Source: a virus
Taxonomy: Duplodnaviria > Caudoviricetes
Length of the DNA: 64,000 bases
Virus record (IMG/VR): IMGVR_UViG_3300042554_001750
Reading direction: 5' to 3' (one strand)
Shown: piece after piece, positions 9,131 to 60,797 of the stretch
Position numbering within the stretch: position 1 is the first letter of the stretch
Layout of the letters: each line of letters starts with the position of its first letter
The notes under the pieces: model-generated
Database searches by the model: none
Seen by the model: the letters and a program-made list of their open reading frames with translations, nothing else
What the model was told of the DNA's origin: nothing
Program-made: the position numbers and the translations under genes

Positions 9131-9142
9131 CTGAAAAATGTT

Positions 9143-17554: not shown

Positions 17555-17556
17555 TT

Positions 17557-34250: not shown

Positions 34251-34999
34251 TTTATTTCCTCTAATTTGGGTGCATACACGCCCAAATGTTGAACTGTTAC
34301 ACTTGCAGCTTTATTGGCAAACTCAATTGCTTTAACTATATCATTGGTTTCTAAAAACATAAACACTAACGCAGCCAAAAAAGTATCTCCGCACCCAGTA
34401 ACATCTACTACTTCAGTTTCACGGGCAGGAAACTGCACACCGTTATATGTACAACCTTTGTTTCCTTGTGTCACTATAAGTGAACTGGTTGTGCTGTTTG
34501 CTTTTGAAAATTCTGTTTCGTTTATCTTTACAACACAACCTTCAAACTCTTTGAGGTCATGTTTTTTGGTATCTATAAAAATAGGACCTAAATATTTCTT
34601 CCTGATAGATTTTACCAAATCATAAGTTACTAATCCTTTGTTGTAATCACTAACGACAACGGCATCAATGTTGTGTAAGTCTATTGAAATTTCATTTATA
34701 GTTAGTGGATCAGACTTTATATCATCGTCAACTCTAACGATATGCTGCTTGCTTTTAGCGTCAATTAATCTTATCTTAGTTGAATTACCTTTGGTCACAA
34801 AGCAAACATCTAATCCTAGCATCAATAAGTTTTCTTTTACATTTGCTGCCATGCCCGGCTTAGATATTTTTTTAGTCAGTTTGAAAACAGGCACAGGTGC
34901 TTCAGGACTAATTCTATCAACAGTACCAAAGTGGTACTCATCAATACAACTGTCACCGATTAATAATACTGTGAATTTTTTCTGTTGTTGAGTATCCAT
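34247..34999 (-). CDS. hldA: PfkB-family heptose-7-phosphate kinase (RfaE/HldE domain I)
   Basis: GTVDRISPEAPVPV, SDYNKG, DVTGCGDTF. Confidence 0.85.
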   Translation of the reverse strand: MDTQQQKKFTVLLIGDSCIDEYHFGTVDRISPEAPVPVFKLTKKISKPGMAANVKENLLMLGLDVCFVTKGNSTKIRLIDAKSKQHIVRVDDDIKSDPLTINEISIDLHNIDAVVVSDYNKGLVTYDLVKSIRKKYLGPIFIDTKKHDLKEFEGCVVKINETEFSKANSTTSSLIVTQGNKGCTYNGVQFPARETEVVDVTGCGDTFLAALVFMFLETNDIVKAIEFANKAASVTVQHLGVYAPKLEEIK

Positions 35000-35339
35000 C
35001 TAATCTATCAAAGAAAATAATTTCCCTACAAAAATATTCACCGACAATGGGTTTTCCGATATAGTCACTACCCTTTACCATAATATCACATTGTTCTACC
35101 AATGCTATCAATTCTTGGTCCGAATCAAATATTACAACTTTGTCAACAGCTTTGAGATTTTCTAGCAGTAATTTGCGTTCGTCTTGTGAATTGATAGGTC
35201 TTGATGATCCTTTTAATTCTTTAACTCTACGATCAGAATCAATCGCTACGACCAAATTATCAGTCAAAGACTTAGCGTAATTTAATAGTGCCAAATGCCC
35301 AGAGTGTATAATATCAAAGGTGCCGTTCACTAATACCAT
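34953..35339 (-). CDS. hldC: Heptose-1-phosphate adenylyltransferase (RfaE/HldE domain II)
   Basis: NGTFDIIHSGH (HxGH), KG..RPIN, VKGSDY, YSTT. Confidence 0.85.
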   Translation of the reverse strand: MVLVNGTFDIIHSGHLALLNYAKSLTDNLVVAIDSDRRVKELKGSSRPINSQDERKLLLENLKAVDKVVIFDSDQELIALVEQCDIMVKGSDYIGKPIVGEYFCREIIFFDRLDGYSTTEKIHSIINR

Positions 35340-35377
35340 AGTAGAGGTATTTATTTCCGTCTCAATATAGTCGTATA

Positions 35378-36376
35378 TTACTTGATAGGGACTAAGTTGT
35401 TTTTAAATATTTCCCAAGCCTGTTGCCAACTCCATCGTTGACTTCCATTTAAAACTATCTGCCTATCCAAATGCAAACAACGCTGGATTGCAATAGATAA
35501 CTCTTGTTCCATATAGCCAGTGATACCCTCGTCAATTACATCCATTGGTCCCTGACATCTATATGCTGCCACCGGTGTACCGCATGCCATTGCTTCTATC
35601 ATAACAATACCAAATGTTTCCCATTGACTTGGAAAAACAAATACATCAGCATTAGCATAGTAATATGCCAATTCATGACCTGTTTTAAAACCTACAAATT
35701 GTATATCGGGGTATTTCTTCTTATATGTTTCCAACATTGGTCCATCCCCTACCATTATTTTATAACTGTTAGGATATTCTAATTTAAAGAAATCTTCTAG
35801 ATTTTTTTCTTTACTAACTCGGCTTACACAGACCAACAATTTAACATCGTCATTTCTATTTCTTTGAGAAGAATTAAAAACCTTTCTATCAACGCCTCTA
35901 GTCCAGCTAACAATTTCTCCATCAAATCCATGCTCACGCAGTTCATTCACCATACTGTCAGTGGTGGTCAATACTTTACCTGAATGTTTGTGAAACCATC
36001 TAACTAAAGGCCAAGTAATACTTTCAGGTATTCCAAATAACTTTCTAATTCCTTCTGGAAACTTAGTATGATAAGCAGTATTGTAGCGATAACCGTGTTT
36101 GTCAAGATATTGTCTAGCACACAAACCCACAGGACCTTCGGTGGCGATATGGATATGATCCGGAGATATCTTCTCAATCGCCTGGCCGATCTTCCTGGGA
36201 AAGGCAATCTTGACTTCGTTGTAGCCAGGGCAACCAATATAGCGGAACCTCCCGGGATCAATAAAAACAACACGATAATTGTCGTGAAGCGCCATAGCCT
36301 CAATATTTTTGTAGGTTGTAACGACACCATTTATTTGATTTGGTAAATTATCAGTTATAATCAGTATAGTTTTCAC
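35378..36376 (-). CDS. agt: GT4 glycosyltransferase of Agt type (diacylglycerol glucosyl/glucuronosyltransferase-like), GTG start
   Basis: TD...QINGVV, HIATEGPVG, YHTKFPE, RVSKEKN, FPSQWETFGIVMIEAMACGTPV (EX7E). Confidence 0.75.
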   Translation of the reverse strand: MKTILIITDNLPNQINGVVTTYKNIEAMALHDNYRVVFIDPGRFRYIGCPGYNEVKIAFPRKIGQAIEKISPDHIHIATEGPVGLCARQYLDKHGYRYNTAYHTKFPEGIRKLFGIPESITWPLVRWFHKHSGKVLTTTDSMVNELREHGFDGEIVSWTRGVDRKVFNSSQRNRNDDVKLLVCVSRVSKEKNLEDFFKLEYPNSYKIMVGDGPMLETYKKKYPDIQFVGFKTGHELAYYYANADVFVFPSQWETFGIVMIEAMACGTPVAAYRCQGPMDVIDEGITGYMEQELSIAIQRCLHLDRQIVLNGSQRWSWQQAWEIFKNNLVPIK

Positions 36377-42460: not shown

Positions 42461-42532
42461 CGTTGATCCTCTATTATATGTATTTATAGTATTAGTAAAT
42501 GTAGATTTTTATATGATCATGACCATCAGTTT

Positions 42533-42560
42533 AAAAAAAGGAGGCTTAAGCCCCCTTTTT
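42533..42560 (-). terminator. Intrinsic terminator after tmRNA
   Basis: AAAAAGGGGGC-TTAA-GCCTCC-TTTTTTT. Confidence 0.8.
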
Positions 42561-42890
42561 GGTTAGTTTGGTAACAAGGTCTTTCCTACCCCGTCTCAAG
42601 CTCAAGCGGCTAGAGCAAATACCTCATCGTTTGCAGGTATAAGTTTTGCTTGATTTACGGTCATCGCCTACCGTGCTGTCCACTCTGTTACTCTTTGCCC
42701 TGTCGAAACCATGACTGGCCCATCATAAAAGGACTATAGCAAAAACTACTAAAACTACAGTTATACCAAACAACCATTTTACTACTTCGTCGTTCATATA
42801 ATCCCTTTATGGTGGACCAGGCGGGAGTCGAACCCGCGTCCAGAACACTTTTCTCTTTGCTTCATACAGCAATAATCTTTATGTTATCAT
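42560..42890 (-). ncRNA. ssrA: Two-piece (circularly permuted) tmRNA; acceptor piece ~42890-42810, intervening segment 42809-42722, coding piece from 42721
   Basis: T-arm and CCA end GCGGGTTCGACTCCCGCCTGGTCCACCA upstream of 5' end GGGCCAGTCATGGTTTCGAC; acceptor stem with G3.U; tag reading frame (A)NDEVFALAA*. Confidence 0.92.
42723..42797 (-). CDS. 24-aa single-transmembrane ORF inside the tmRNA intervening segment
   Basis: AAAGGGA RBS-like, MNDEVVKWLFGITVVLVVFAIVLL*. Confidence 0.5.
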   Translation of the reverse strand: MNDEVVKWLFGITVVLVVFAIVLL

Positions 42891-45800
42891 GACTTGTATT
42901 TATTTGTAAAGTACTGATTTAACCATTCCCATTCGTATGTTAATTTCAATTTGGCAAAATCGTCTTTATTGTTTTCATAATACTCATAAGCATCATTTGC
43001 ACCCATTAATGCATACTCACTAAAGTCACCCTCAGCCTTTGCTAACCAAGTATGCAAACGTGTTTGACTCATATAGTCTTGCTCATCATTACACAGTTTA
43101 ATTACTTCTCTGAATGCAGTTCTCCAAGTGCTATATGGGTCTGTATTGAACATTGCAGTTCCCGAATTGATTTCTACTACTTCATGGTTGTCATCAAGTG
43201 TAAAGTCTAATCCTTTACCGGTGTTATTCAATGTCATTATCTTGTTATAGGCAATCATAGCTTGGTGACCATATACTAACCCGTTCACAGGATTAGTAGC
43301 GTGAAAAATATAATGCTTTGACTTTTGAAGCCTGTCAGGTTGCCAGTTCCAATCAAAATTGTCGTCTACTTTTAACTTAGCAAATACCGTAAAGAACCAC
43401 GGCGTAGTGCTTACATTTGCTGCGGCATGGTACGCATTTACTCTTCCATTTACCCCATCAACGCGGACAACTTTGTTCTTTTTACCTTTGGTTACTTTTA
43501 ATAGATGTTCGTAGTTTTCTTCTGCGTTACTTTCACCATTGCTTAAAAATACAATGTCTAACGGATTGCTTTGTAATGGCTTGTAAGATTTTTTAATATA
43601 GGGATAATCATATAATTCTTCTTTTACATATTTTATAGCATCTTTAGGAACTATTATTCTTGTTCCACCTGTAGTAGTTACTAGAATAGTTTTAGAACTT
43701 TCAGACCATAAACTAATAGGTTTCTCATCCTTGATATTAATATTTCTATGGTCGTTAGTTTTAAAAACTGCATAAGGGAACTTAAAGTTTTTATCTATAG
43801 ATCCAACATGACTGTCACTAGTAATAAATTCAGGCGGATTGATTCTAGTGACTGATTGATGCTCATTGAAATTGATACTTGGATAATTTTCTAATGAAGA
43901 AATGTCATTTATGAACTTGCGCAATAATTCAACATTTACTAAAAAGGTATCACCATATTTTTGTCTGTCACTAGGAAACACATGCAATTGTTCCTGCGCA
44001 AAGGGATCGCAAATATAACTGAAATCAAATTTATCGTAATGACATATTGAATTACATACCCAAATAAACTGATCCTTTTTATCTTCTAACAGATTAAGAA
44101 TCTTTTCAAATGTTTTATGATAGGTGTCTACAAAATCAATAGTATGTAATTTTCTATTCCCAATTTTTTCTGTAATGTCGTATATGATATCAACCGATTC
44201 GTAGTTTCCGTGATCTATCAAATATACATCATATAGACAATCAGTAGCCTTTGCTCTTTTACTTTTTACTAAGTTTATAGTATTGAGGTGCTCAATAACT
44301 TTAACATACTTGGTATCTTCTAAAAAGGTTTCTGAATTAATGACATAAGTATTTCCCCAATGATTCCATTGAGTACCAAACACATGAATCATTTTGATTT
44401 GCCATGGACTTGGATAAAAATCAAAAGTAAAATCAGAATAATCTAATTCGCTATTCAATACCCAAAATAATTTTGTTTCTGTTTTGCGAATGCATCTTGC
44501 GATTGTTTCAACCCAGTTGTTGAAGAATCTTGTTTTTTGAAGCTTGGGATATAACTCTTTAAGTTTATTGAAACGAATATTACTTTCTAGGTTACCTTTA
44601 TCAATAAAAAACATACTCAAATTAGTATCTGTTTGAACTTGATGTTCTTCAACATAGTTATATTCTTTATAGCCCAACAAATACAACGGAGCATTGATGT
44701 AGTAGGTTTGTGTGTTCTTACTATATTCATTACCGAACACATTTATGTGTCTAAAGTTTTGTTCAGTTGGCCTCCAACTAAAATCAAACTTATCATAGTT
44801 TAAATCAGGGTTTAGTGCCCAAAATACTTCTTCAGGATGTTGATTAATCAAATCTTCTAATGTAGTCGTAATATAATATTTGTTTACTGTTGTCTTTTTA
44901 CTTTCATTAGAACGTTCCATCAATACAACTTCCGTAGCACCAGGCACTGTGTATCTAGGGCCATTGTTAGCCCACTGATATATTTGAGGCGGACTATGAG
45001 GATTAGGTCTCCATGTAAAATCAAATGTTTCTAAATCATCAGTATTGTTAACGCTCCACAAATTTAGTTGTGCAGCAGGAACAGCTACCGGTTCTAACAT
45101 ATATTTTTTATCTGTTGCTCCCTCTACATGATATTCAACAGTGGGTTCAGTAGATGCATCATTCCATTTATTACCAAACACATATATGTAGGGAGGTGAC
45201 TTGGGATCAGGTCTCCAACTAAAATCAAAACTTTCAATTGGTAGTAATTTTTTCCAATGATTTTCTGTCGCAGTAGATTTTACTAATGCTTTGATGTTAT
45301 CAATGTATGTGTATTCTGTAGCTCCGGGACAATGATACTCAACAGTTGGTTCTTGAAGTGCATCATTCCATTGATTACCAAACACATAGATATAAGGAGG
45401 ACTATGTGGATTAGGTCTCCAGCTATAATCAAAACTTTCTATGTCTATTAATGTTTTCCAATACTGTTGTGTTTTACTAACTTTAGCAATTATGTTAGTA
45501 ATATACTTTTTGTCAGTGGCCCCATGAACTGTGTACAGTACCGTAGGCTCAGTCATAGCATCGTGCCATTGATTGCCAAACACATAGATATAAGGAGGAC
45601 TGCCGGGTTCGGGTCTCCAACTAAAATCAAAATCTTCTACTGGAATCAACACACTCCAATTATCCATGTCGGGCAATGTTTTCGCAAATCTGTCATTCAT
45701 GTATTTGCGTTCAGATGCCCCTTCACAGTGATATTCAATAGTTGGTTCTGTTTCAGCATTGTTACTTTGATTACCCCATACATAGATATATGCTGGTTCT

Positions 45801-48544
45801 CTTGGGTCAGGTCTCCATGTGAAATCAAAACTATCTTTGTCTATAGGTATAAGAATATTATATCTATCATATTCGGGTAGAACGTCAGTATTGCCCATGT
45901 ACTTAATTTCTGTGGCGCCATCACAATGATATTCAATTGTAGATTTTAGTTCACCGGGTATCCACTTGTTACCCCACACATAGATGTATGCTGGCTCTCT
46001 TGGGTCTGGCCGCCAAGTAAAGTCAAAGTTTGTTACCTTTTGTACTTCCTTCCATCTATCATATTCGGGCAATATATCAACAGGTTCTTGAATATATTTG
46101 TACTCAGTAGCCCCTTCCATGTGATATTCTAATGTGGATTTAAGTTCAGGTCTTATCCACTTGTTGCCCCAGACATAGATATATGCAGGTTCTCTTGGAT
46201 CTGGTCTCCAACTTAAATCAAATTTTGCTTTATCAATTGGTTGAATTTCTTTCCACTTAGACAGTTCAGGTAACACTTCAATATCACCCATATACTTTCT
46301 TTCAGTGGCATTTGGCGCTTTATATTCTAAAGTAGGTTTCAATTCAGCCTTGATCCATTTATTTCCCCATGTGTAAATATACGCAGGCTCTCTTGGATCT
46401 GGTCTCCAAGCAAAATCAAATTTAGATTTATCTATTTGCTGATGTTCAACCCAACGGTCATGTTCGGGCAATACTTCAACATTTCCCATATATTTGTATT
46501 CAGTTGCACCGGGGGTGTGATATTCAACAGTAGGTCGTAATTCTCCCGGTATATATTTGTTACCCCATACGTAAATATACGGGGGACTAGTAGGATTGGG
46601 TCTCCAACTAAAGTCAAATTTTTCTTTGTCAATTTGTTGATGTATTTCCCACTTATCTAGCTCGGGTAATACTTCAACATTGCCCATATACTTGCGTTCA
46701 GTTGCTCCATCTACATAATATTCAAGTGTTGGGTGAACCTCAGCCGGCACGTGCTTATTACCCCATGTGTAAATGTAAGCAGGTTCTCTTGGATCTGGTA
46801 TCCAAGTAAAATCAAAATTTTGTATGGATGCATGTATTTTATAGTTGTCCCAATTTGGTAATACTGGAACCTCTCCCATGTATTTTCTATCTGTCGCACC
46901 GGGCACAACATATTCAAGCGTAGGTTTTAATTCAGCAGAAACATACTTATTCCCCCAAGTATAGATATATGCTGGTTCTCTTGGATCGGGGCGCCATGCC
47001 ATGTCAAACTGTGTTTTATCAACTGGAATGTGCATTATCCATTTTTCAAGTTCCGGGACAACATCAACATCTCCCATGTACTTTCTTTCTGTAGCACCTT
47101 CTACATAATATTCTATTGTAGGCTGTATTTCCCCGGGTATATATTTGTTACCCCAAACATAGACATAAGCGGGTTCACGAGGATCTGGTCTCCAGGCTAG
47201 ATCAAAATTAGTTACTAAATGATGTATTTTCCATTTGTCTGTTTCCGGGAGAACCTCAACATCTCCCATGTACTTTCGTTCAGTAGCCCCGGGGGTGTGA
47301 TATTCTAGGGTTGGTTTTATTTCTCCAGGTATATATTTATTACCCCAGACATAAACATAAGCAGGTTCTCTTGGGTCAGGTCGCCATGTCAAATCAAAGG
47401 TGTTCTTTTGATATACGATCCATTTATTATATTCAGGCACAACCTCAACATCTCCCATGTACTTTCGTTCAGTAGCGCCAGGAGTGTGGTATTCTAGAGT
47501 TGGTGATATTTCAGCAGATACAAACTTATTCCCCCAAGTATAGATATATGCTGGTTCTCTTGGATCAGGCCTCCAAGTAAAGTCAAAATTTTTAACTTCA
47601 CTGTATATTTTCCATAACTCAGTTTGGGGCAAGACCGGGGCAGGATCATTCATGTATTTTTTATCTATTGCACCATCTACATGATATTCAATGGTTGAAT
47701 GAAGTTCAGCGGGAACCCACTTATTACCCCATACATAAATGTATGCAGGACTCGTTGGATCAGGTATCCAACTAAAGTCAAATAAATCTAGATTTATTGG
47801 ATCATTGATTACCCACTTGTCATATTTGGGAATCAATCTAACCGTGTCTGACATATATTTTTTTTCTGTCGCACCGGGTGCACGGTACTCTACTGTAGGA
47901 GATATCGCCCCGGAAACCCATTTGTTACCCCATACATAGATATAAGGAGGTTCATGCTCGTCTGGCATCCAAGTAAAGTCAAACAGTTTCTCATCTATTG
48001 GTTTATGAATCACCCAATTATCCCAATCAGGGACTGCTGTTGCTAATTGCGTGTCCACAAATTTAATAACGGTTGCGCCGGGTACAATATATCTAGGTCC
48101 ACCTGTTTTGCGCCACTGAGAACTAAACTGATAGATAAAAGGAGGATCAGTTGTATCAGGATGCCAGCTAAAATCAAACAACTTTTCATCTATAGGATAT
48201 GGAATTACCCAGTTATCAGATTTTAATTTTGTTCTTTTAACACAATCAACATCATTTCTATAAATGATACAGGGATTTTGATTGTCTGTATTAACTAACC
48301 AAGTCCCGCTATCTTTCTGATGCTGGCTGGGCCAAACATTGATATGATCTTCTGCCCACACATCTTCGTCAGGTAGAAAATCAAAATCAAAATCCCAATC
48401 AAAATTGCGATAATCACTAAACTCGTTGATTATCCAAAAATGTTCTGTAGTAGATTGGTTTCTAGCATCTGCTAAATCTTTAGCAAACTTTTCTCTAGGA
48501 TGGACGTTTGGTTTTTTACCGTAATAAAATACATCTCTCAGCAT
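42887..48544 (-). CDS. 1885-aa protein with ~17 tandem ~58-aa repeats and several degenerate glycosyltransferase-like domains
   Basis: Repeat consensus FDFxWRPDPREPAYIYVWGNK...PTLEY..PGATERKYMG; C-terminal LDIVFLSNGE..A..NY...RVDGV.G...Y.AAA domain. Confidence 0.75.
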   Translation of the reverse strand: MLRDVFYYGKKPNVHPREKFAKDLADARNQSTTEHFWIINEFSDYRNFDWDFDFDFLPDEDVWAEDHINVWPSQHQKDSGTWLVNTDNQNPCIIYRNDVDCVKRTKLKSDNWVIPYPIDEKLFDFSWHPDTTDPPFIYQFSSQWRKTGGPRYIVPGATVIKFVDTQLATAVPDWDNWVIHKPIDEKLFDFTWMPDEHEPPYIYVWGNKWVSGAISPTVEYRAPGATEKKYMSDTVRLIPKYDKWVINDPINLDLFDFSWIPDPTSPAYIYVWGNKWVPAELHSTIEYHVDGAIDKKYMNDPAPVLPQTELWKIYSEVKNFDFTWRPDPREPAYIYTWGNKFVSAEISPTLEYHTPGATERKYMGDVEVVPEYNKWIVYQKNTFDLTWRPDPREPAYVYVWGNKYIPGEIKPTLEYHTPGATERKYMGDVEVLPETDKWKIHHLVTNFDLAWRPDPREPAYVYVWGNKYIPGEIQPTIEYYVEGATERKYMGDVDVVPELEKWIMHIPVDKTQFDMAWRPDPREPAYIYTWGNKYVSAELKPTLEYVVPGATDRKYMGEVPVLPNWDNYKIHASIQNFDFTWIPDPREPAYIYTWGNKHVPAEVHPTLEYYVDGATERKYMGNVEVLPELDKWEIHQQIDKEKFDFSWRPNPTSPPYIYVWGNKYIPGELRPTVEYHTPGATEYKYMGNVEVLPEHDRWVEHQQIDKSKFDFAWRPDPREPAYIYTWGNKWIKAELKPTLEYKAPNATERKYMGDIEVLPELSKWKEIQPIDKAKFDLSWRPDPREPAYIYVWGNKWIRPELKSTLEYHMEGATEYKYIQEPVDILPEYDRWKEVQKVTNFDFTWRPDPREPAYIYVWGNKWIPGELKSTIEYHCDGATEIKYMGNTDVLPEYDRYNILIPIDKDSFDFTWRPDPREPAYIYVWGNQSNNAETEPTIEYHCEGASERKYMNDRFAKTLPDMDNWSVLIPVEDFDFSWRPEPGSPPYIYVFGNQWHDAMTEPTVLYTVHGATDKKYITNIIAKVSKTQQYWKTLIDIESFDYSWRPNPHSPPYIYVFGNQWNDALQEPTVEYHCPGATEYTYIDNIKALVKSTATENHWKKLLPIESFDFSWRPDPKSPPYIYVFGNKWNDASTEPTVEYHVEGATDKKYMLEPVAVPAAQLNLWSVNNTDDLETFDFTWRPNPHSPPQIYQWANNGPRYTVPGATEVVLMERSNESKKTTVNKYYITTTLEDLINQHPEEVFWALNPDLNYDKFDFSWRPTEQNFRHINVFGNEYSKNTQTYYINAPLYLLGYKEYNYVEEHQVQTDTNLSMFFIDKGNLESNIRFNKLKELYPKLQKTRFFNNWVETIARCIRKTETKLFWVLNSELDYSDFTFDFYPSPWQIKMIHVFGTQWNHWGNTYVINSETFLEDTKYVKVIEHLNTINLVKSKRAKATDCLYDVYLIDHGNYESVDIIYDITEKIGNRKLHTIDFVDTYHKTFEKILNLLEDKKDQFIWVCNSICHYDKFDFSYICDPFAQEQLHVFPSDRQKYGDTFLVNVELLRKFINDISSLENYPSINFNEHQSVTRINPPEFITSDSHVGSIDKNFKFPYAVFKTNDHRNINIKDEKPISLWSESSKTILVTTTGGTRIIVPKDAIKYVKEELYDYPYIKKSYKPLQSNPLDIVFLSNGESNAEENYEHLLKVTKGKKNKVVRVDGVNGRVNAYHAAANVSTTPWFFTVFAKLKVDDNFDWNWQPDRLQKSKHYIFHATNPVNGLVYGHQAMIAYNKIMTLNNTGKGLDFTLDDNHEVVEINSGTAMFNTDPYSTWRTAFREVIKLCNDEQDYMSQTRLHTWLAKAEGDFSEYALMGANDAYEYYENNKDDFAKLKLTYEWEWLNQYFTNKYKS

Positions 48545-48552: not shown

Positions 48553-50037
48553 TTATGATATAACTTTTACATTATATAGTTTTTCAAAACGGTCGGCATC
48601 AAATCTATCATTGACCATTGGTTCGCCGCGTATATTCAATGAAGTGTTCAGTAATATAGGGCATTCGGTCATTACATACCACTTTTCTAGTAAGTCTCGT
48701 ATTCCTGATCCATCTTTCGGAACAGTTTGTACACGACTAGTCCCATCATAATGAACAATAGCAGGGAACTTGTTTGGAAATTTGCACTTTGCAATAACTT
48801 GCATGTATCTGCTGTTGTTCCAATTTTTAGGCATATCAAAATACTTATGCACATGCTCCTCTAGAATTATAGGGGCAAATGGTCTGAATTTCTGTCTGCG
48901 TTTGATTTCATTTACTTTGTCTTTAATTTCGTTCCCTCTAGGATCTGCTAACAAACTACGGTTGCCTAAGGCTCTTGGGCCAAACTCTGCTTTACCACTA
49001 GCCACACCAACAATACGATCGGTAAAAAGACAATCAAGTATACGGTTAGTAGGATAAGGACCAGGGATATTGTGGCCGAGAAAAGCACTAGTCCAATTAA
49101 GGTGCTTGCGATAACCAAGCGCAGCGGCTCCCAAACTAGAACCGCAATCACCAGGATTAGGCATAATCCATATTTGATCAAAATATTCTCCTAGTAGTCT
49201 GTTAGCAAGACAGTTTAGTGCAACACCGCCGCCATACACTAAATTGCGACTCGCGCCTTTTAGTCTGGCTTTTGACATTACTTCCCGCAATAATTGTTCT
49301 AAGAACACTTGACTAGAGCTTGCAATATCCATTGGATCTGCGTCTTTTAAAAACTCATCATCAGCGCCAATGTGCAGATTTTGTTTAAAGTCAATGGAAT
49401 GCATATTCTCTATAAATTCCGAATGCATCAAATCAGTATACTTGGGTTCTCCGTATGCAGCCATTCCCATAAGAATATATTCTTCATCCATTGGCTTTAA
49501 ACCAACTTTATGAGTCATGGCACTATAAAATAAACCTAAACTGTTTGGATATTGTTTGCTGTATAGTTTTATGTATTTTGCATTACCGTTATTATCGTAA
49601 TATGCATCCCATATTGTTATGGTATCAAATTCTCCAATAGCATCTATAATAACCACTGTAGCATCAGTAAAAGGACTAGTTTGAAAACTAGCTGCGGCAT
49701 GACTTAAATGATGATTATGTTTTTTAATACTTTTTTTGCCCAACATGTTATACATGTTGGGTCCTACTAATTCAGAATCAAACAAATTCAATAAAGAAGG
49801 TTTTTCTCCGGCACGGAGTTGTCTTAGTATCTTATAAAACGGTCTTTCGTAATAATGAAGTTCAAAATCACCAGTTGCATGATTCAACGCATCTTGAACA
49901 ATACTTGCACACAAATTTTTGTCGTGCTTGTGTTTGCTGTATCTTTCACTATGGCTGGCAAAAAGTATATCACCCGTTCCAGAGATGACAGTTAATCCGG
50001 CATCATGAAAACCGTTGCTTATACCTATATAGTTCAT
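48553..50037 (-). CDS. Carbamoyltransferase (NodU/CmcH family)
   Basis: FHDAG, HH.SHAA, DAIGE, GGVALNC, EFGPRALGNRS, FRPFAP, RVQT, NTSLN. Confidence 0.92.
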   Translation of the reverse strand: MNYIGISNGFHDAGLTVISGTGDILFASHSERYSKHKHDKNLCASIVQDALNHATGDFELHYYERPFYKILRQLRAGEKPSLLNLFDSELVGPNMYNMLGKKSIKKHNHHLSHAAASFQTSPFTDATVVIIDAIGEFDTITIWDAYYDNNGNAKYIKLYSKQYPNSLGLFYSAMTHKVGLKPMDEEYILMGMAAYGEPKYTDLMHSEFIENMHSIDFKQNLHIGADDEFLKDADPMDIASSSQVFLEQLLREVMSKARLKGASRNLVYGGGVALNCLANRLLGEYFDQIWIMPNPGDCGSSLGAAALGYRKHLNWTSAFLGHNIPGPYPTNRILDCLFTDRIVGVASGKAEFGPRALGNRSLLADPRGNEIKDKVNEIKRRQKFRPFAPIILEEHVHKYFDMPKNWNNSRYMQVIAKCKFPNKFPAIVHYDGTSRVQTVPKDGSGIRDLLEKWYVMTECPILLNTSLNIRGEPMVNDRFDADRFEKLYNVKVIS

Positions 50038-50156
50038 TTGTAAATAAACGGATCGCGCTTTTTAAGTTCTTTGATTTTTTTTCTGTAAGTAATTTCTCGG
50101 TGAACTTTATGATAGTAATTGAATACTAATTCTTTTAGCTTGTTGAATAAACTCAT
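50034..50156 (-). CDS. Unannotated 40-aa basic protein coupled to carbamoyltransferase
   Basis: MSLFNKLKELVFNYYHKVHREITYRKKIKELKKRDPFIYK*, ATGA overlap. Confidence 0.65.
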   Translation of the reverse strand: MSLFNKLKELVFNYYHKVHREITYRKKIKELKKRDPFIYK

Positions 50157-50166
50157 GGGATGAACC

Positions 50167-51249
50167 TCATAACAAATGATGGAAATTGTGATTGATCCGT
50201 TCGGATTTGTTATTTATCTTGTATAATTCAGCTAGGAAATCTTTAAACTGTGGGTGTGCAGGATCAAAGATTGAAATATTACTAATGTCTTTAATCGTAT
50301 ACGCACCGGTATTCCAATGTACTATTTGTCTATAATTGATACTAAAAGTAAACGATGCCTTTTCAAAAATTTCCAACATCAAATTATAAAAAATTTCCAT
50401 TTCTTTATAATTGTATTGAGAAACAACCATTGACAATGTTAGATGTTCAAGCGTAGTTTGTGTTCGTAAAAACTTTAAATTCTCAATTAGTGCATCCCAA
50501 TCACCATTCAATCTGGTAATATTTTCATAAGTATGTTTTGTGCCAGCGTCAATACTTATTTCCATTGTTTTAATAAAGGGCTTGGCTTTTAACTTATCCC
50601 ACATTTTTTCAGTCAACAATACACCATTGGTAATAATGTGTATTCTTTCAAGATTGGGATACTTACTAGCATCAAAATTTATAAGATAATCTCTGTATAA
50701 CTTGCTATAAAAGGGATCACCACTTCCCGTAATCATTATAACCTTAGCAGATTCACTAAATTCGTTATCTACTGCATCTAGTAAATATTTTTTTGTTTTA
50801 TGACTTTCAGATTCAAGGTCATCGTTAGGAACAAAATCTTTTCTGCATGAGGGACATTTTAAGTTGCAACTTCTATCAAATCCAAATAATATTTGTTCTG
50901 GAAATCCTGAATAATTTTCTAAATCATATGATTGTTGAAATTCTTCAATCGTTATAAAGTCCTTAGGCTTTACACCCGTGTTTACAAGTTGTGACAACTG
51001 AGGGCATACTTTATGGTCACAAAACTTATAAGTACCATCAGTTACTGACTCTCTAATATCTTTTACGGTCTGTGAAAACCAACTTTGTTTTAGTGTTTCG
51101 GTATCATTAAAGTTTGTGTTATTTTGTCTGATATTTGTAGGACACCAGCTGGGGCAACACACCCACTGAGTATCCTGCTGTATATCAATGTACTTAAAAG
51201 GATTTAAACAGACATACTTTTTAAGTATGTCTTTATTTTCTTGTTTCAT
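50167..51249 (-). CDS. Radical SAM protein with N-terminal SPASM/twitch-like Cys cluster
   Basis: CNLKCPSC; CLNPF...CC...C...C. Confidence 0.88.
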   Translation of the reverse strand: MKQENKDILKKYVCLNPFKYIDIQQDTQWVCCPSWCPTNIRQNNTNFNDTETLKQSWFSQTVKDIRESVTDGTYKFCDHKVCPQLSQLVNTGVKPKDFITIEEFQQSYDLENYSGFPEQILFGFDRSCNLKCPSCRKDFVPNDDLESESHKTKKYLLDAVDNEFSESAKVIMITGSGDPFYSKLYRDYLINFDASKYPNLERIHIITNGVLLTEKMWDKLKAKPFIKTMEISIDAGTKHTYENITRLNGDWDALIENLKFLRTQTTLEHLTLSMVVSQYNYKEMEIFYNLMLEIFEKASFTFSINYRQIVHWNTGAYTIKDISNISIFDPAHPQFKDFLAELYKINNKSERINHNFHHLL

Positions 51250-52105
51250 AATGGAAGGGATCTCTTGCCTGTAACTCAGCCATCATTTGTTTGAAATTTT
51301 CTTCGGAGGTCTGATCTATTGTAGGACTATTTTCAAGATTTTGATCAAGCCAATCTTTCAACATTTTAGCATATTCTTGATGAGCAAAATAACCTGGATG
51401 AGGATCATCAGAATATCCCTTAATTTCATCACAAACAAATTTATTATTATCTCTTGAATATGCCAATATATTACTATAAAATAAATCGTTTTTATTGAAA
51501 AACTTATCATAAAATTTATACATATAACCGTGCATAAGTTTTATTGCAATATTGTTAGATTTACAAAACAAGTATAATCCAATCATGTCCCGGCTTATTT
51601 TTTTCCAAAACTCAAAAGTGTTATGAAATTTTTCAAAGTAGTGTTTAAAATCTTCTTGGACATCATCTACGCCTTCTGGGCGAGGATTATAGCAAGGAGT
51701 AGCGTATGCAAATTTTTGTGTGCTTAATTCTGAATTACAAATAAAGTATTTGCCCCAGTCATTGTAATACAGTTCACTTCTTCCGGGATCGGGCATTTCT
51801 AAAAACAAAAATAATCTATGACGATTATCCCAGTTTTTTTCCAAAAATTCATAAGTCATTCTTATGACTCTATCCAATCCTCCCCCACACTCGGCTTCAT
51901 TGACACATTGTATGTTAATCAGTTTAGATAGCATGGCTCCATAATTTGCTTCAGTGCGTGTATCACTCCAAGATACATTATACAAGGTTTTGTAGCCCTC
52001 TAAACATTTTTCATTCCATGGTGCGATAGTGGTATCTTCTAATCCGCCCCCCATAGTATATGAGCTACCATTGATGTAAAATAAGTCGTAACCTTTATAA
52101 CTCAT
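51233..52105 (-). CDS. SGNH/GDSL-like hypothetical protein
   Basis: NGSSYT block I, DPHPG block V. Confidence 0.55.
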   Translation of the reverse strand: MSYKGYDLFYINGSSYTMGGGLEDTTIAPWNEKCLEGYKTLYNVSWSDTRTEANYGAMLSKLINIQCVNEAECGGGLDRVIRMTYEFLEKNWDNRHRLFLFLEMPDPGRSELYYNDWGKYFICNSELSTQKFAYATPCYNPRPEGVDDVQEDFKHYFEKFHNTFEFWKKISRDMIGLYLFCKSNNIAIKLMHGYMYKFYDKFFNKNDLFYSNILAYSRDNNKFVCDEIKGYSDDPHPGYFAHQEYAKMLKDWLDQNLENSPTIDQTSEENFKQMMAELQARDPFHYETRK

Positions 52106-52641
52106 GATGCATAATATAATTCAGGGTATTCTACTAATACATGCACTCCGCCGTTTTGATATGCCTCTAGATAAGATTTTTCAATCAAATTATATGAAGT
52201 CAAATCATAAAAAGAAATATTTTTACACATGTTTTTGAATTCATTAATATAATTACCCTTATGTTGATGACCCGGATCTAGTGGCTTATCTGACCCTTTA
52301 CCCAATCTAATTATTAAATTAATTTTATGGCCGGTCATAAGTTCGTATTTGTCTACATGATTAATCAATTGATTGGCTGCACAAATAATAAAATCCCATC
52401 TTGGATAAAAAGTAATAACAGTTTTGCCTGTCATTGCAATGCCCAAACTCATTCCCATTTGAGTTTCTTCCATTACGGGAAGCTCTATCATTTTTTCTTT
52501 TGGCACATTATTAAGTGTTGTGCTCATTGGATTGCCAGCGTACAATATCTGCTGTCCAATAAAAATTGTATCCCCCTTGGTGCCCAATTCTGTCATTACT
52601 GACGACAATGCATCTTTATATACAGAATTATTGTCGCTCAT
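52102..52641 (-). CDS. TPP-enzyme beta-type subunit (PDH E1-beta/transketolase pyrimidine-binding domain only)
   Basis: ELPVMEETQMGMSLG.A, DF...A.NQL.N, GHQH. Confidence 0.8.
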   Translation of the reverse strand: MSDNNSVYKDALSSVMTELGTKGDTIFIGQQILYAGNPMSTTLNNVPKEKMIELPVMEETQMGMSLGIAMTGKTVITFYPRWDFIICAANQLINHVDKYELMTGHKINLIIRLGKGSDKPLDPGHQHKGNYINEFKNMCKNISFYDLTSYNLIEKSYLEAYQNGGVHVLVEYPELYYAS

Positions 52642-53470
52642 ATTGATCCAACTTTTCTATGATGTTTTTTGCCATTACTTGATGACATTCTAATGAAGGA
52701 TGATGATCTTTGGGAGGATCTTCAAAGAAAACGGTATCTCCATTAATAACCAAATTCCTATTTTCTTTCATCATCGTTTCCATACAATCGTATTTTTGAT
52801 TGTTATAGTTTATTTCCATAAATCTTTTGTTCAACCATTCATCTTGCTTGATATACTGTACAAAGTCTACAGGCCAAGAATAAATTATAGTTTTTATTCC
52901 CTTGCTTTCAAAATGCATTAAAAACTTTTTTACTTTCATCAAACTGTGTTGGATATATCTTGCTGATAACTCATCAAAGGTGTAATTTTTATCTCTAATG
53001 TATTTAAAAAAGTTTATAGACTCAACCGACCCGTCGTTCAATAAGTCTTGCCAAGAAAATGTAAAGTTATGTCCATCTTCTATAACTTGTTTTTTATCCC
53101 GAGTCCAGTATGTTAGTTGGTACACAAGGTATTTTACCTCATTGTATCCGTAACAGTTACGGTCAGCCATTGGTTTTTCACCCTGAAATAATTCATAAAA
53201 ATAGCCCATAATTGAATCATTTGATCCGCCGTTATTTTTCTGAACTATTTCAAATGTATTAAAATGATTCGCAACTAATCTCGCGCCTCGCACAGAATCT
53301 TTGAAATTAAATTGTGCTTGAGTTAACAATGACTCATTGTATGCATCCGGTGCAGGTTCATCTAATGTAGGTAAGTTACTGTAATAATATAGTCCTTGAC
53401 CCCAAGTAAATGAACAGCCAGCAAATGCTATCCCTTTCCTAATATTAGTATTTGGTTTTACTTTAAACAT
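52628..53470 (-). CDS. SGNH/GDSL-like hypothetical protein
   Basis: AGCSFTWGQG, GGSN, DHHPS. Confidence 0.55.
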   Translation of the reverse strand: MFKVKPNTNIRKGIAFAGCSFTWGQGLYYYSNLPTLDEPAPDAYNESLLTQAQFNFKDSVRGARLVANHFNTFEIVQKNNGGSNDSIMGYFYELFQGEKPMADRNCYGYNEVKYLVYQLTYWTRDKKQVIEDGHNFTFSWQDLLNDGSVESINFFKYIRDKNYTFDELSARYIQHSLMKVKKFLMHFESKGIKTIIYSWPVDFVQYIKQDEWLNKRFMEINYNNQKYDCMETMMKENRNLVINGDTVFFEDPPKDHHPSLECHQVMAKNIIEKLDQYERQ

Positions 53471-53888
53471 TTTGATCTCGTTGACTCCAACTGATTTCCC
53501 AGTCTTTAAATTCGGCTGCTAAACAATCTACTTTGTAATCTTTTCTGCCACCAATCGCTTCTTGAATTACATTTTTAGCTGTATTTCGTATACCATTTAA
53601 TCCATGAGTTAACTCTAGATTATTACCATCTTTAATTCCACGCCGATAATTACTTTCATTATGCCAAATATGCAAGTTCATTTGAGACACAACAACTACT
53701 GCTCGTATTGTTTCAGCAGTAATTACACCATTATTCTCATCTAAAATCATTTGTATATCGTGTACAATATCTGCAATTTCTTGAGAATATGCTTCTTTAT
53801 GTTCGGGTATAAACACTTCTTTAAGTTGAACAATACTTAAACGGTCAATTAAATCACCAAGTGAATGTAGATATCGGCGCTGTTTCAT
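53463..53888 (-). CDS. Hypothetical protein (DUF6165-like helical)
   Basis: SLGDLIDRLSIVQLK, N..IW..E, N..R. Confidence 0.55.
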   Translation of the reverse strand: MKQRRYLHSLGDLIDRLSIVQLKEVFIPEHKEAYSQEIADIVHDIQMILDENNGVITAETIRAVVVVSQMNLHIWHNESNYRRGIKDGNNLELTHGLNGIRNTAKNVIQEAIGGRKDYKVDCLAAEFKDWEISWSQRDQNV

Positions 53889-54820
53889 AAGTTTGTAAAG
53901 TTTCTATTATTGTGATTTATCGTCATTTGATATGCACTAATTAATTGTTGGATTCCATAATCTAAACTAAAACTTGGTCTCCAACCCAAACTTTCTAGTT
54001 TTTGATTACTAACAATATAATTTCTCTTATCAAAATCTTCTTTGAACTCATCCTGCTTGATTACCAAAGACGGGACATGTTCTTTTATCTTATTTGCTAA
54101 TTCTAACTTGCTTAAGTTAGCATCAGACAACCCAACATTATATACATTATGGTTGCAAATATTATAATTGGATACCATGAACAAAAATGTTTGAGCTATG
54201 TCTTGCACATGTATATAATTTCTTTTGAAGTTTGCCTCAAACAATACTAGGTAACCATCTGTGACTGATTTATAAACAAAGTCATTGACCAATAAATCCT
54301 GTCTCATACGAGGGCTAACACCAAATACGGTAGCCAAACGCAATACAATACCATTACTTTTATCTAGCACATATTGTTCAGCATCGCACTTTGTCTGCGC
54401 ATATAGACTTAACGGCTTGAATGGGCTATCTTCAGTAATAATTGAATCGCTAGATCCATATTGACTGTTTGTATTGGGTATTATCAATTTCTGATCGTTA
54501 CTTAACCAATCCACGATGTTTTTGATTTGTTTATAATTAACATCAACCGTAAGCTCTGGATTGGATTTGCATGCAGGCATGCCAACAATCGCTGCTAACG
54601 GAATCACTATATCATGTGTAGTAACCAGTTCTTTTAGCAATTCGGTATTACGCACATCACCTTGAACAAACTTAAATTTTTCATGCTTGAATAGATGCAA
54701 CAAGCTAAGTTGCTTGTACATTAAGTTGTCCAAAACCGTAACTTCATACTGTTGCTGTAAAAAGTATTCGGCCATAGTAGAGCCCAAATAGCCGGCGCCG
54801 CCTGTAATTAAAACCTTCAT
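53885..54820 (-). CDS. NAD-dependent sugar epimerase/dehydratase
   Basis: ITGGAGYLGS, YAQTK, RLATVFG. Confidence 0.9.
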   Translation of the reverse strand: MKVLITGGAGYLGSTMAEYFLQQQYEVTVLDNLMYKQLSLLHLFKHEKFKFVQGDVRNTELLKELVTTHDIVIPLAAIVGMPACKSNPELTVDVNYKQIKNIVDWLSNDQKLIIPNTNSQYGSSDSIITEDSPFKPLSLYAQTKCDAEQYVLDKSNGIVLRLATVFGVSPRMRQDLLVNDFVYKSVTDGYLVLFEANFKRNYIHVQDIAQTFLFMVSNYNICNHNVYNVGLSDANLSKLELANKIKEHVPSLVIKQDEFKEDFDKRNYIVSNQKLESLGWRPSFSLDYGIQQLISAYQMTINHNNRNFTNL

Positions 54821-54828
54821 AGCAGTAT

Positions 54829-58831: not shown

Positions 58832-58837
58832 AGATGT

Positions 58838-60795: not shown

Positions 60796-60797
60796 GA

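What the first reader, a model, noticed from the sequence alone, without database searches (positions are those of the whole stretch)
42533..42903. Phage-encoded two-piece (permuted) tmRNA
Seen: the tRNA-like 3' end with T-arm and CCA precedes the 5' end; GGGCCAG pairs with CTGGTCC including G3.U; CAGGGCA pairs with TGTTCTG; tag (A)NDEVFALAA*; own ATAAATA motif and terminator. Known: permuted tmRNAs occur in alphaproteobacteria, some cyanobacteria and a betaproteobacterial lineage; the ANDExFALAA tag is betaproteobacterial style; phage tmRNAs reported so far are mostly one-piece as far as I know. Inference: late ribosome rescue (or counter to tRNA/tmRNA-cleaving defences) and a strong host clue. 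A tRNA scanner would mis-call or miss it.
Basis: partly seen in the sequence, partly recalled or inferred. Interest (0 to 1): 0.8.

Follow-up and report, generated by a model that had tools for sequence, protein, structure and literature searches.

The report
Phage two-piece tmRNA carrying a peptide gene
A large freshwater phage carries an intact split (two-piece) tmRNA gene, which is already known from aquatic phages, but the spacer that is cut out during maturation holds a conserved 24-codon membrane-peptide gene, a layout I did not find described in the papers I could search.

Summary
ARAGORN calls a permuted tmRNA at 42511-42902 (-) with the tag ANDEVFALAA*. Rfam beta_tmRNA scores 138 bits (cut-off 84) and tmRNA_permuted 137 bits (cut-off 47). 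Both inter-piece helices covary in relatives, and G3.U70 never changes.

The window is a large freshwater myovirus fragment with no close sequenced relative. Phage two-piece tmRNAs are already published (Melnitz; 53 unique two-piece calls, PMC9004378), so the gene itself is a new member of a known kind.

The "strong host clue" is not supported. The exact 32-nt T-arm/acceptor sequence is in at least 119 IMG/VR viral contigs but in only 2 stray MAG contigs among 185,579 species genomes.

The 88-nt spacer between CCA and G1 is a gene: SD, AUG, 24 codons (MNDEVVKWLFGITVVLVVFAIVLL), and a UGA one base before the RNase P site. SD and stop are paired in the closing stem.

- The peptide gene occurs only in tmRNA spacers (22 of 22).
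- It shows a frame-specific synonymous excess.
- Related spacers hold other genes, including a full IscU.

Translation and processing are inferred, not shown. This scan has noted the same layout on other genomes. I found no paper describing it.

The parts
42897..42903 (-). ATAAATA promoter-like motif (resembles the T4 late promoter TATAAATA), about 25 nt upstream of the acceptor piece
   Evidence: In the window it occurs 16 times on the coding strand and once on the other. 12 of the 16 are intergenic and 11 of those lie 5-50 nt before ORF starts. It is found upstream of 15 of 81 unique clade tmRNA genes, against about 2% expected.
42881..42910 (-). Weak sigma-70-like promoter match: TTTACA, 18 nt, TAACAT, with TG before the -10. 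It overlaps the stop codon (42889-42887) of the upstream 1885-aa ORF.
   Evidence: 9 of 12 matches, which is not above the shuffle expectation on its own. It aligns to the promoter part of the Rfam beta_tmRNA model.
42810..42871 (-). Acceptor piece: 5' helix strands, P2a strand UGUUCUG (42847-42841), T-arm (42837-42821), acceptor 3' strand CUGGUCC (42820-42814), A73 (42813), encoded CCA (42812-42810)
   Evidence: P2a is paired in 77-78 of 78 unique relatives with compensatory changes.
42722..42809 (-). Intervening spacer (88 nt). The closing stem has a 5' arm at 42809-42797 and a 3' arm at 42738-42726, followed by UGAU (42725-42722) just before the RNase P site.
   Evidence: The precursor hairpin folds at dG -40.3 kcal/mol, z = -6.9. 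A closing helix is present in all 69 unique clade spacers, with a median of 11 uninterrupted pairs and 46 distinct arm sequences.
42802..42807 (-). Shine-Dalgarno-like AAGGGA, 4 nt before the AUG and buried in the closing stem
   Evidence: An SD-like opening is associated with a full-length spacer ORF: 15 of 19 against 1 of 50; Fisher p = 2e-7 under a looser criterion.
42723..42797 (-). Spacer ORF: 24 codons plus UGA, MNDEVVKWLFGITVVLVVFAIVLL*. It has an acidic N-terminus and a 17-residue hydrophobic tail.
   Evidence: Translation. The amino-acid sequence is identical in L012, with 2 synonymous changes. 22 of 22 family members lie in tmRNA spacers. The synonymous excess is frame-specific. Mean hydropathy of residues 8-24 is 2.98.
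42533..42721 (-). Coding piece: G1 at 42721, acceptor 5' strand GGGCCAG (42721-42715), GGUUUCGAC D-loop analogue, P2a strand CAGGGCA (42702-42696), a hairpin, the tag frame, a 3' domain and the terminal hairpin
   Evidence: Acceptor pair 6:67 is seen as U-A, A-U, C-G and G-C in relatives, while G3.U70 is invariant.
42602..42634 (-). Tag reading frame: resume codon GCA, ANDEVFALAA, stop UGA
42533..42560 (-). Intrinsic terminator: 11-bp hairpin, UUAA loop, U-run
   Evidence: Fold. It matches the terminal hairpin of the Rfam model. The hairpin covaries among six relatives. The simple terminator scanner did not list it.

Best explanation
This is an intact, circularly permuted tmRNA gene of a large freshwater phage.

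One transcript starts near the ATAAATA motif and ends at the 42560-42533 terminator. In order, it contains the acceptor piece (ending in an encoded CCA at 42810), an 88-nt spacer, and the coding piece (starting at G42721) with the tag frame ANDEVFALAA.

Inferred from what is known of two-piece tmRNAs: the two halves pair through the acceptor stem and helix P2a. RNase P cuts before G1, the 3' end is trimmed back to CCA, and the spacer is released. The two-piece RNA is charged with alanine (G3.U70, A73) and works with the host's SmpB to rescue stalled ribosomes while the phage is making its proteins.

The added finding, shown at sequence level, is that the spacer is a small gene for a 24-residue membrane-type peptide. 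Its SD and its stop codon are paired with each other in the spacer's closing stem, and the stop lies one base before the RNase P site.

My inferred mechanism is as follows. The SD is free only while the RNA is still being made, so a ribosome can load and translate during transcription. When that ribosome terminates, the anti-SD-like 3' arm closes the stem, the tRNA-like domain forms and the RNA is processed. One precursor therefore serves first as a messenger and then as a stable RNA. In related phages the same spacer is an exchangeable slot for other small genes.
For: tmRNA identity:
- ARAGORN calls a permuted gene with a tag.
- Two covariance models score far above their cut-offs.
- G3.U70, A73 and CCA are present, along with the T-arm and the resume context.
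- P2a is paired in 77-78 of 78 unique relatives at each of its six predicted pairs. Five of the six show compensatory changes; at one pair the counts are U-A 52, G-C 10, A-U 6, U-G 6, C-G 4.
- Acceptor pair 6:67 is U-A 7, A-U 5, C-G 2, G-C 2 in a set that was not selected on the tRNA-like domain, and G3.U70 is invariant.
- The terminator hairpin covaries.

Phage context:
- TerL, virion proteins, UvsX, UvsY and a gp32-type SSB are present, and all genes are on one strand.
- The SSB is closest to jumbo phages at 45-53% amino-acid identity.
- There is synteny with IMG/VR contigs of 223-363 kb.

SmpB: none in five related records, two of them complete, and none in the window's SmpB-sized ORFs. The control search found SmpB in 10 of 14 named genomes.

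Spacer gene:
- SD, AUG, 24 codons and UGA.
- Window against L012: 2 synonymous, 0 non-synonymous changes.
- L008 against L059: 11 synonymous to 2 non-synonymous in frame, against 0 to 11 in both other frames.
- 22 of 22 occurrences, found with a pattern not anchored on tmRNA, lie in tmRNA spacers.
- SD-type spacers have an ORF ending exactly on the UGA in 15 of 19 cases. Other spacers do so in 1 of 50.
- Another spacer holds a full-length NifU_N/IscU protein, E 3e-55.

Stem: the precursor hairpin has z = -6.9 and buries the SD, the first base of the AUG and the first two bases of the UGA. A closing helix is universal across 69 spacers with 46 distinct arms.
Against: - Nothing here shows that this RNA is made, cut into two pieces, charged with alanine or used by any host.
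- The SD is buried in a 13-15 bp stem, which could simply prevent translation.
- The closest analogue, the S23p ORF in the Coxiella 23S rRNA intervening sequence, appears not to be made in vivo (PMC4990558, abstract).
- The peptide has no match in Pfam or PHROGs.
- Its last 11 residues were fixed by my search pattern, so conservation there is partly by construction.
- The host is unknown, so compatibility with its SmpB, AlaRS and proteases is assumed.
- The one-shot, co-transcriptional translation model is pure inference.
Confidence: 0.8

Rival explanations
1. The tmRNA is real, but the spacer ORF is not translated. It would be a relic or a selfish passenger, or its sequence would be kept only for the RNA processing stem.
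For: The SD and start are sequestered in a stable stem. The analogous S23p ORF in the Coxiella 23S rRNA intervening sequence appears not to be synthesised in vivo (PMC4990558, found). There is no protein-family match.
Against: RNA-structure constraint cannot produce a frame-specific excess of synonymous changes: 11 to 2 in frame against 0 to 11 in both other frames, and 16 to 8 against 1 to 23 and 0 to 23. About 50 hairpin-only spacers do without any SD, AUG or ORF. The peptide has stayed with the spacer across tmRNAs whose acceptor stems have diverged. A full IscU gene occupies the same slot in L101.
Confidence: 0.12
2. The main role of the phage tmRNA is not general ribosome rescue. It would be counter-defence (replacing host tmRNA or tRNA-like RNA destroyed by a nuclease) or redirection of tagging (competing with host tmRNA, or selectively degrading host proteins).
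For: Such roles have been suggested for phage tmRNAs (PMC9004378 discusses recycling of host proteins; PMC4131195 notes that the DS6A TLD-only RNA inhibits host tmRNA). The phage brings no SmpB, so it must share or compete for the host's. Tags in the clade are diverse, including tags of 26-31 residues.
Against: No defence or anti-defence gene is linked to it in the ORFs I scanned. The tag keeps the standard ALAA end and the RNA keeps every rescue feature, so ordinary trans-translation is the simplest reading. This rival concerns purpose, not identity, and is compatible with the main explanation.
Confidence: 0.1
3. It is host DNA: a bacterial tmRNA captured at a prophage junction, an attP-like fragment, or bacterial contamination of the contig.
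For: tmRNA genes are common integration sites, and phages often carry 3' fragments of them (PMC4383910, PMC9004378).
Against: The gene is complete, with both pieces, the tag and a terminator. It sits between phage genes on the same strand with the phage's own promoter motif. The gene order giant ORF then tmRNA is conserved in five other viral contigs. The exact 32-mer is almost absent from 185,579 species genomes. No integrase turned up among the roughly 50 ORFs scanned.
Confidence: 0.02

Closest known systems
Phage-encoded two-piece tmRNAs of aquatic myophages (Methylophilales phage Melnitz, pelagimyophages; PMC9004378)
   Same: A complete permuted ssrA gene in a large lytic-type aquatic phage, with its own promoter and terminator and no integrase nearby. 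That paper counted 53 unique two-piece calls in phage genomes, 50 of them from marine or aquatic phages.
   Different: Melnitz's gene is reported as alphaproteobacterial-type with a glutamine riboswitch in its 3' domain. This one scores as beta-type, and no riboswitch or other Rfam family matches nearby. That paper does not mention any protein-coding spacer. There is no DNA-level similarity to any phage in INPHARED beyond the T-arm.
Betaproteobacterial two-piece tmRNA (Rfam RF01850; general model RF04321; PMC11915505)
   Same: Best-scoring structural type: full-length model match, the same order of pieces, a reduced 3' domain, and an ANDExFALAA-style tag.
   Different: The spacer is 88 nt where the model has about 14 nt beyond its consensus, and it is coding. 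The exact T-arm/acceptor sequence is nearly absent from bacterial species genomes and abundant in viral contigs. The 5' helices of the acceptor piece fit the model poorly (mismatch marks).
Intervening sequences of bacterial 23S rRNA that carry the S23p ORF (Coxiella burnetii; PMC4990558)
   Same: A protein-coding ORF lies inside a segment that is excised from a stable-RNA precursor and closed by a stem.
   Different: That is a different host RNA (rRNA helix 45) with no homology to this peptide. S23p appears not to be made in vivo. Here the ORFs have their own SD and show purifying selection.
Other contents reported in tmRNA intervening sequences (PMC11915505)
   Same: The 2025 tmRNA database paper notes that the intervening sequence of a permuted gene can hold extra elements: a tRNA-Ala gene in one case and a repetitive element in another.
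   Different: That paper mentions no protein-coding gene in an intervening sequence. Its set held only 79 phage tmRNAs.
Small hydrophobic peptides with a structurally hidden SD (type I toxins such as Ibs, Ldr, TisB). This comparison is from my own knowledge and is only an analogy.
   Same: A peptide of about 20-35 residues that is mostly a membrane helix, with translation start signals sequestered in RNA structure.
   Different: No antisense RNA partner was looked for, there is no homology, and toxicity is unknown.

Membership tests
Permuted (two-piece) tmRNA | Covariance-model score above the curated cut-off | tested here: met
   RF04321 scores 137.1 bits against 47. RF01850 scores 138 against 84, with the full model length matched.
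Permuted (two-piece) tmRNA | Permuted gene order: the T-arm, acceptor 3' strand and CCA lie upstream of the 5' strand and the tag frame | tested here: met
   ARAGORN tmRNA* call. CCA is at 42812-42810 and G1 at 42721.
Permuted (two-piece) tmRNA | Acceptor stem formed between the two pieces, with G3.U70, discriminator A73 and CCA (alanine identity) | tested here: met
   GGGCCAG pairs with CUGGUCC. Pair 6:67 covaries through all four Watson-Crick pairs in 16 unique relatives, while G3.U70 is invariant.
Permuted (two-piece) tmRNA | Second inter-piece helix (P2a) holding the pieces together | tested here: met
   Paired in 77-78 of 78 unique relatives at each predicted pair, with compensatory changes.
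Permuted (two-piece) tmRNA | Tag reading frame with an alanine resume codon, a hydrophobic ALAA end and a stop | tested here: met
   GCA resume codon, ANDEVFALAA, UGA.
Permuted (two-piece) tmRNA | Precursor is processed into two RNA molecules | not testable with these tools
   Only assembled RNA contigs were available. They match the conserved mature parts, which relatives share. Raw reads or a Northern blot are needed.
Permuted (two-piece) tmRNA | Works with SmpB | not testable with these tools
   No phage SmpB was found. Use of the host's SmpB is assumed.
Betaproteobacterial tmRNA lineage (as a guide to the host) | The same or a near-identical tRNA-like domain occurs in betaproteobacterial genomes | tested here: not met
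   The exact 32-mer is in 2 of 185,579 species genomes, and neither is a betaproteobacterium. One is a short MAG contig with phage-like content and the other a Clostridiales MAG contig with a one-piece tmRNA. Limit: only exact matches were searched.
Melnitz-type phage tmRNA | Glutamine (glnA) riboswitch in the 3' domain; alpha-type structure | tested here: not met
   No riboswitch matches at E up to 1. The best clan member is beta_tmRNA.
Protein-coding gene (for the spacer ORF) | SD at proper spacing, a start codon, an open frame and a stop | tested here: met
   AAGGGA, then 4 nt, then AUG, 24 codons and UGA.
Protein-coding gene (for the spacer ORF) | Purifying selection on the reading frame | tested here: met
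   Synonymous to non-synonymous counts are 11 to 2 in frame against 0 to 11 in both other frames, and 16 to 8 against 1 to 23 and 0 to 23 for a second cargo family. Over the first 12 codons of 13 unique ORFs the counts are 210 to 325 in frame, against 132 to 427 and 28 to 539.
Protein-coding gene (for the spacer ORF) | Product detected | not testable with these tools
   No proteomic or ribosome-profiling data were available.
23S rRNA IVS protein (S23p) | Sequence homology to the S23p family | tested here: not met
   No Pfam match for the peptide or for seven of the eight other spacer products tested; the eighth is NifU_N, not S23p.

The most novel reading that the evidence does not exclude
The tmRNA precursor doubles as a messenger, and translation and maturation are mechanically coupled. 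The 24-codon membrane-peptide gene in the spacer is translated as the RNA emerges. The terminating ribosome sits on the UGA one base from the RNase P site, so the tRNA-like domain cannot form until it leaves. Then the anti-SD-like 3' arm locks the SD away and the RNA is cut into the two tmRNA pieces. Across a largely phage-restricted tmRNA lineage, this spacer is a standard slot with fixed SD and Leu-stop boundaries, in which different small genes, up to a whole IscU, are swapped.
Probability: 0.3. Interest if true: 0.8.

Novelty: new variant of a known kind. Interest (0 to 1): 0.6.

Why it matters
The tmRNA itself adds one more case to a known pattern: large aquatic phages bring their own ribosome-rescue RNA and rely on the host's SmpB.

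The spacer gene matters more, for four reasons.
- A segment treated as throw-away in a stable-RNA gene is under protein-coding selection. Gene callers will miss it because the locus is annotated as RNA.
- It gives a compact natural example of an RNA that is first a messenger and then a structural RNA. The stem hides both the start signal and the stop, which makes a testable case for translation-gated RNA processing.
- The fixed boundaries (CCA-UAAGGAG...AUG and ...UUA-UGA-U-G1) and the variety of cargo suggest a modular expression slot that phages exchange.
- It warns against reading tmRNA type or tag as a guide to the host, because this tRNA-like domain circulates almost only in viral contigs.

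Tried and rejected
- RNA evidence. Four metatranscriptomes were laid on 42480-42960. Their contigs cover only the conserved mature parts (depth up to about 5,700; some identical to the window over 49-66 nt) and not the spacer. These are contigs, the covered parts are shared with relatives, and DNA carry-over cannot be excluded. I draw no conclusion about expression or processing of this copy.
- A second search for RNA runs, using the spacer alone, listed no RNA holder. That is not evidence either way.
- Own genome: none is held, so neither smpB nor the rest of the phage could be searched directly.
- Megablast of 20 kb of the window against INPHARED found no match. blastn of the gene found only T-arm-sized matches in Xanthomonas and Stenotrophomonas phages.
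- My first label, 'T4-like cyanophage-like', was withdrawn. The SSB is closest to jumbo phages of the PA5oct, Atu_ph07 and Rak2 types, although one virion protein is closest to cyanophages.
- The terminator scanner found none. The hairpin plus U-run is nevertheless clear in the fold and in the Rfam alignment.
- The sigma-70-like promoter match is no better than in shuffled sequence.
- Sharkady and Williams 2004 (PMC516066) is not held, so the original description of the beta lineage was not read.
- Bacterial beta-type genes could not be fetched for a direct comparison of spacers.
- The resemblance between the peptide's start (MNDEV) and the tag (ANDEV) was considered as a sign of duplication. 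Other family members do not track their own tags, so I treat it as coincidence.
- Pfam and PHROGs gave nothing for the peptide or for seven of the eight other spacer products tested.
Full report

Yes.
- ARAGORN finds exactly one RNA gene in the 64-kb window. It is a permuted tmRNA at 42511-42902 on the minus strand, with the tag ANDEVFALAA*.
- Rfam's beta_tmRNA model matches end to end at 138 bits against a cut-off of 84. The general tmRNA_permuted model matches at 137 bits against 47. No other family matches in the region at E up to 1.
- Read on the sense strand, the gene has the following parts:
  - a T-arm (GCGGG/UUCGACU/CCCGC, 42837-42821);
  - the acceptor 3' strand CUGGUCC, then A73 and an encoded CCA (42820-42810);
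  - an 88-nt spacer;
  - G1 at 42721 with GGGCCAG, which forms a 7-bp acceptor stem including G3.U70;
  - the P2a helix, UGUUCUG pairing with CAGGGCA;
  - the resume codon GCA and the tag frame 42634-42602;
  - an 11-bp terminal hairpin with a U-run (42560-42533).

**2. What is the surrounding DNA?**

It is a phage, and all sizeable ORFs are on the minus strand.
- The window encodes a large terminase, virion proteins, two giant proteins of about 1,500 aa with baseplate-wedge-type repeats, UvsX, UvsY, a gp32-type SSB, ThyA and DHFR.
- It also encodes many auxiliary genes: PstS, a carbamoyltransferase, sugar-nucleotide enzymes and radical SAM enzymes.
- The SSB is closest, at 45-53% identity, to jumbo phages of the PA5oct, Atu_ph07 and Rak2 types.
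- There is no nucleotide-level relative in INPHARED.
- Relatives at 65-78% nt identity exist in IMG/VR. They include contigs of 223-285 kb and complete genomes of 355-363 kb with terminal repeats.
- In five of these relatives the tmRNA gene also lies just downstream of the gene for the giant 1885-aa protein.
- The stretch is held by lake and freshwater metagenomes from 13 studies besides the possible source.
- There are no tRNA genes in the window. In many relatives the tmRNA sits inside a tRNA array.

**3. Is the tmRNA intact and under selection?**

ARAGORN calls a permuted tmRNA with an ANDExFALAA-like tag in about 70 of the first 80. All 14 relatives I tested score best as beta_tmRNA.
- Across 78 unique relatives, helix P2a, which joins the two pieces, is paired in 77-78 of 78 at every position, with many double changes.
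- A second set of relatives was found without reference to the tRNA-like domain. There, acceptor pair 6:67 occurs as U-A, A-U, C-G and G-C, while G3.U70 never changes.
- The terminator hairpin covaries too.

This is what a working two-piece tmRNA should look like.

SmpB is absent from five related records, two of them complete, and from the window's SmpB-sized ORFs. The same search found SmpB in 10 of 14 control genomes. The RNA must therefore use the host's SmpB. That step is inferred.

**4. Transcription signals**

- It occurs 16 times on the coding strand of the window and once on the other strand.
- 12 of the 16 are intergenic in a window that is 95% coding.
- 11 of those 12 lie 5-50 nt before ORF starts, including the terminase and virion-protein genes.
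- It is found upstream of 15 of 81 unique clade tmRNA genes, against about 2% expected.

It resembles the T4 late promoter TATAAATA, as cited in PMC9004378. The tmRNA has its own copy at 42903-42897. The next gene downstream has another at 42487-42481, just after the terminator. The tmRNA is therefore an autonomous unit, plausibly expressed together with the structural genes.

**5. What is already known**
- Huge phages with tmRNA and SmpB were reported in 2020 (PMC7162821).
- Buchholz et al. 2022 (PMC9004378) described the two-piece tmRNA of Melnitz. They counted 402 phage genomes with 133 unique tmRNAs, of which 53 were two-piece and 50 of those came from marine or aquatic phages.

As a phage two-piece tmRNA, this gene is a new member of a known kind. 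It differs from Melnitz's gene in being beta-type and in having no riboswitch.

**6. The host clue**

The exact 32-mer occurs in only 2 of 185,579 species-representative genomes.
- One is a 7.6-kb MAG contig that also carries an amber-suppressor tRNA and the same spacer peptide, so it is probably a mis-binned phage contig.
- The other is a Clostridiales MAG contig with a one-piece tmRNA.

This tRNA-like domain therefore circulates almost only among viral contigs. Melnitz shows that a phage's tmRNA type need not match its host. I therefore do not accept the tag or the type as a strong host clue. The limit of this test is that only exact matches were searched.

**7. The unexpected part: the spacer is a gene**

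The 88 nt between CCA and G1 read UAAAGGGAUUAU-AUG, then 23 further sense codons (24 in all), then UGA-U, followed by G1. The product is MNDEVVKWLFGITVVLVVFAIVLL. It has an acidic start and a 17-residue hydrophobic stretch (mean hydropathy 2.98).

Among the 69 unique spacers of the clade there are two classes.
- About 50 are plain hairpins with no SD, no AUG and no ORF.
- 19 open with an SD-like motif. In 15 of these an ORF starts 5-9 nt later and ends exactly on the UGA of the conserved UGAU, 4 nt before G1. Only 1 of the 50 plain spacers does so. Under a looser criterion, Fisher p = 2e-7.

Selection is on the protein.
- Window against L012: 2 synonymous, 0 non-synonymous changes.
- L008 against L059: 11 synonymous to 2 non-synonymous in frame, against 0 to 11 in both other frames.
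- A second cargo family (L011 against L070): 16 to 8 in frame, against 1 to 23 and 0 to 23.

A back-translated pattern of the peptide's C-terminus, which says nothing about tmRNA, found 20 viral contigs. Counting the window and the MAG contig as well, all 22 occurrences lie in a tmRNA spacer. They fall in tmRNAs with four different acceptor stems, and there are 13 unique 24-codon versions.

Other spacers hold unrelated ORFs of 25-64 codons. In L101 the spacer holds a full-length IscU (NifU_N, E 3e-55).

Syntenic relatives with the same flanking genes carry different spacers: a hairpin in L003 and L032, and a 61-codon ORF in L100. The spacer therefore behaves as an exchangeable slot.

Nearly all cargo ORFs end in Leu(UUA)-UGA, and a few in Phe(UUU)-UGA. 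This is because the last codons form the 3' arm that pairs with the SD.

**8. How it most likely works**

Shown:
- The precursor folds as one long coaxial hairpin (dG -40.3 kcal/mol, z = -6.9). It consists of the acceptor stem plus a 13-15 bp spacer stem. That stem buries the SD, the first base of the AUG and the first two bases of the UGA.
- A closing helix right after CCA, ending at U[G/A]AU before G1, is universal. It has a median of 11 uninterrupted pairs and 46 different arm sequences.

Inferred from established knowledge of two-piece tmRNA and tRNA processing:
- RNase P cuts between U-1 and G1.
- The 3' end is trimmed back to CCA.
- The spacer is released.

My own inference: the SD is accessible only before the 3' arm has been transcribed, so translation is co-transcriptional and limited. 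A ribosome terminating on the UGA covers G1 and the acceptor 5' strand. The tRNA-like domain can therefore form, and be cut, only after that ribosome leaves. I put about 0.3 on this coupling. I put about 0.85 on the ORF being a real gene, and about 0.97 on the tmRNA being genuine.

**9. Novelty**

Three full-text searches found no paper describing a protein gene in a tmRNA intervening sequence. The 2025 tmRNA database paper reports only a tRNA gene and a repetitive element in such sequences (PMC11915505).

The nearest analogue is the S23p ORF in the Coxiella 23S rRNA intervening sequence, which appears not to be made in vivo (PMC4990558). That is a fair caution.

This scan's own earlier notes describe the same layout on other genomes: 61 notes in at least 51 genomes. 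I reached the layout independently, before reading them. They agree with my reading but do not count as evidence for it.

**10. Verdict**

The tmRNA is a new member of a known kind. With its coding spacer it is a new variant of a known kind. Expression, processing and translation remain to be shown.

Noticed in passing
window 15786-18480 (-): The large terminase is split into two ORFs: the ATPase part at 17557-18480 and the nuclease part at 15786-16844. A 224-aa ORF with homing-endonuclease/HNH-like matches lies between them at 16822-17496. Rfam found no group I intron.
   Followed up: partly
window 387-2943 (-): A second homing-endonuclease-like ORF (1091-1852) sits between UvsX (1888-2943) and UvsY (387-845).
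   Followed up: no
window 42887-48544 (-): An orphan giant protein of 1885 aa with no family match lies directly upstream of the tmRNA. The gene order giant ORF then tmRNA is conserved in L003, L041, L032, L058 and L100.
   Followed up: partly
window 33406-36376 and 48553-63711 (-): There are large clusters of sugar-nucleotide and modification genes: four NAD-dependent epimerases, a dTDP-sugar 3,5-epimerase, a cytidylyltransferase, a PfkB kinase, a glycosyltransferase, a carbamoyltransferase, radical SAM enzymes and split TPP-dependent enzyme parts. They may serve surface or DNA modification.
   Followed up: no
window 4568-13744 (-): Two adjacent giant proteins (1509 and 1533 aa) each have six repeated stretches that match baseplate-wedge and virion-protein families.
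   Followed up: no
L011 156-338 (-), L070 3449-3637 (-): One spacer cargo family (MPVDMYYYTESEWNRLGCGPLPPER...) has no stop before G1. The frame runs 17-26 codons into the mature coding piece, so after an RNase P cut it would be a non-stop message. It is strongly conserved at protein level, with 16 synonymous codon differences.
   Followed up: partly
L101 1388-1771 (+): A full-length IscU/NifU_N Fe-S scaffold gene (128 aa, E 3e-55) sits inside the 405-nt spacer of an otherwise normal permuted tmRNA gene.
   Followed up: partly
L009, L010, L014, L032, L051, L066, L074, L120: An amber-suppressor tRNA (anticodon CUA, which ARAGORN labels Pyl) lies 1-5 kb from the tmRNA in several relatives. This hints at stop-codon reassignment in those phages.
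   Followed up: no
L016, L057, L059, L068, L097, L111: Some clade tmRNAs have unusually long tags of 26-31 residues, for example ANADTFDF...NDSRFALAA. Others end in KLAA or RLAA.
   Followed up: no
L012 4120-4545 (+) compared with window 42530-42930: The gene is mosaic. The acceptor piece, the spacer and the first ~110 nt of the coding piece are nearly identical to the window, with 2 changes. The tag (ANDSSYALAA), the 3' domain, the terminator and the flanks are different. Likewise, one 74-nt hairpin spacer is shared by genes with three different tags.
   Followed up: partly
L121 4479-4833 (+): A Clostridiales MAG contig carries a standard one-piece tmRNA (tag ANDEKLAFAA) whose 3' end is identical to the 32-mer of the phage clade.
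   Followed up: no
L015 and L076 spacers: Some hairpin-type spacers contain T-arm-like sequences (GGTTCGATTCC, GGTTCAACTCC). They may be remnants of tRNA genes, like the tRNA-in-spacer case noted in PMC11915505.
   Followed up: no
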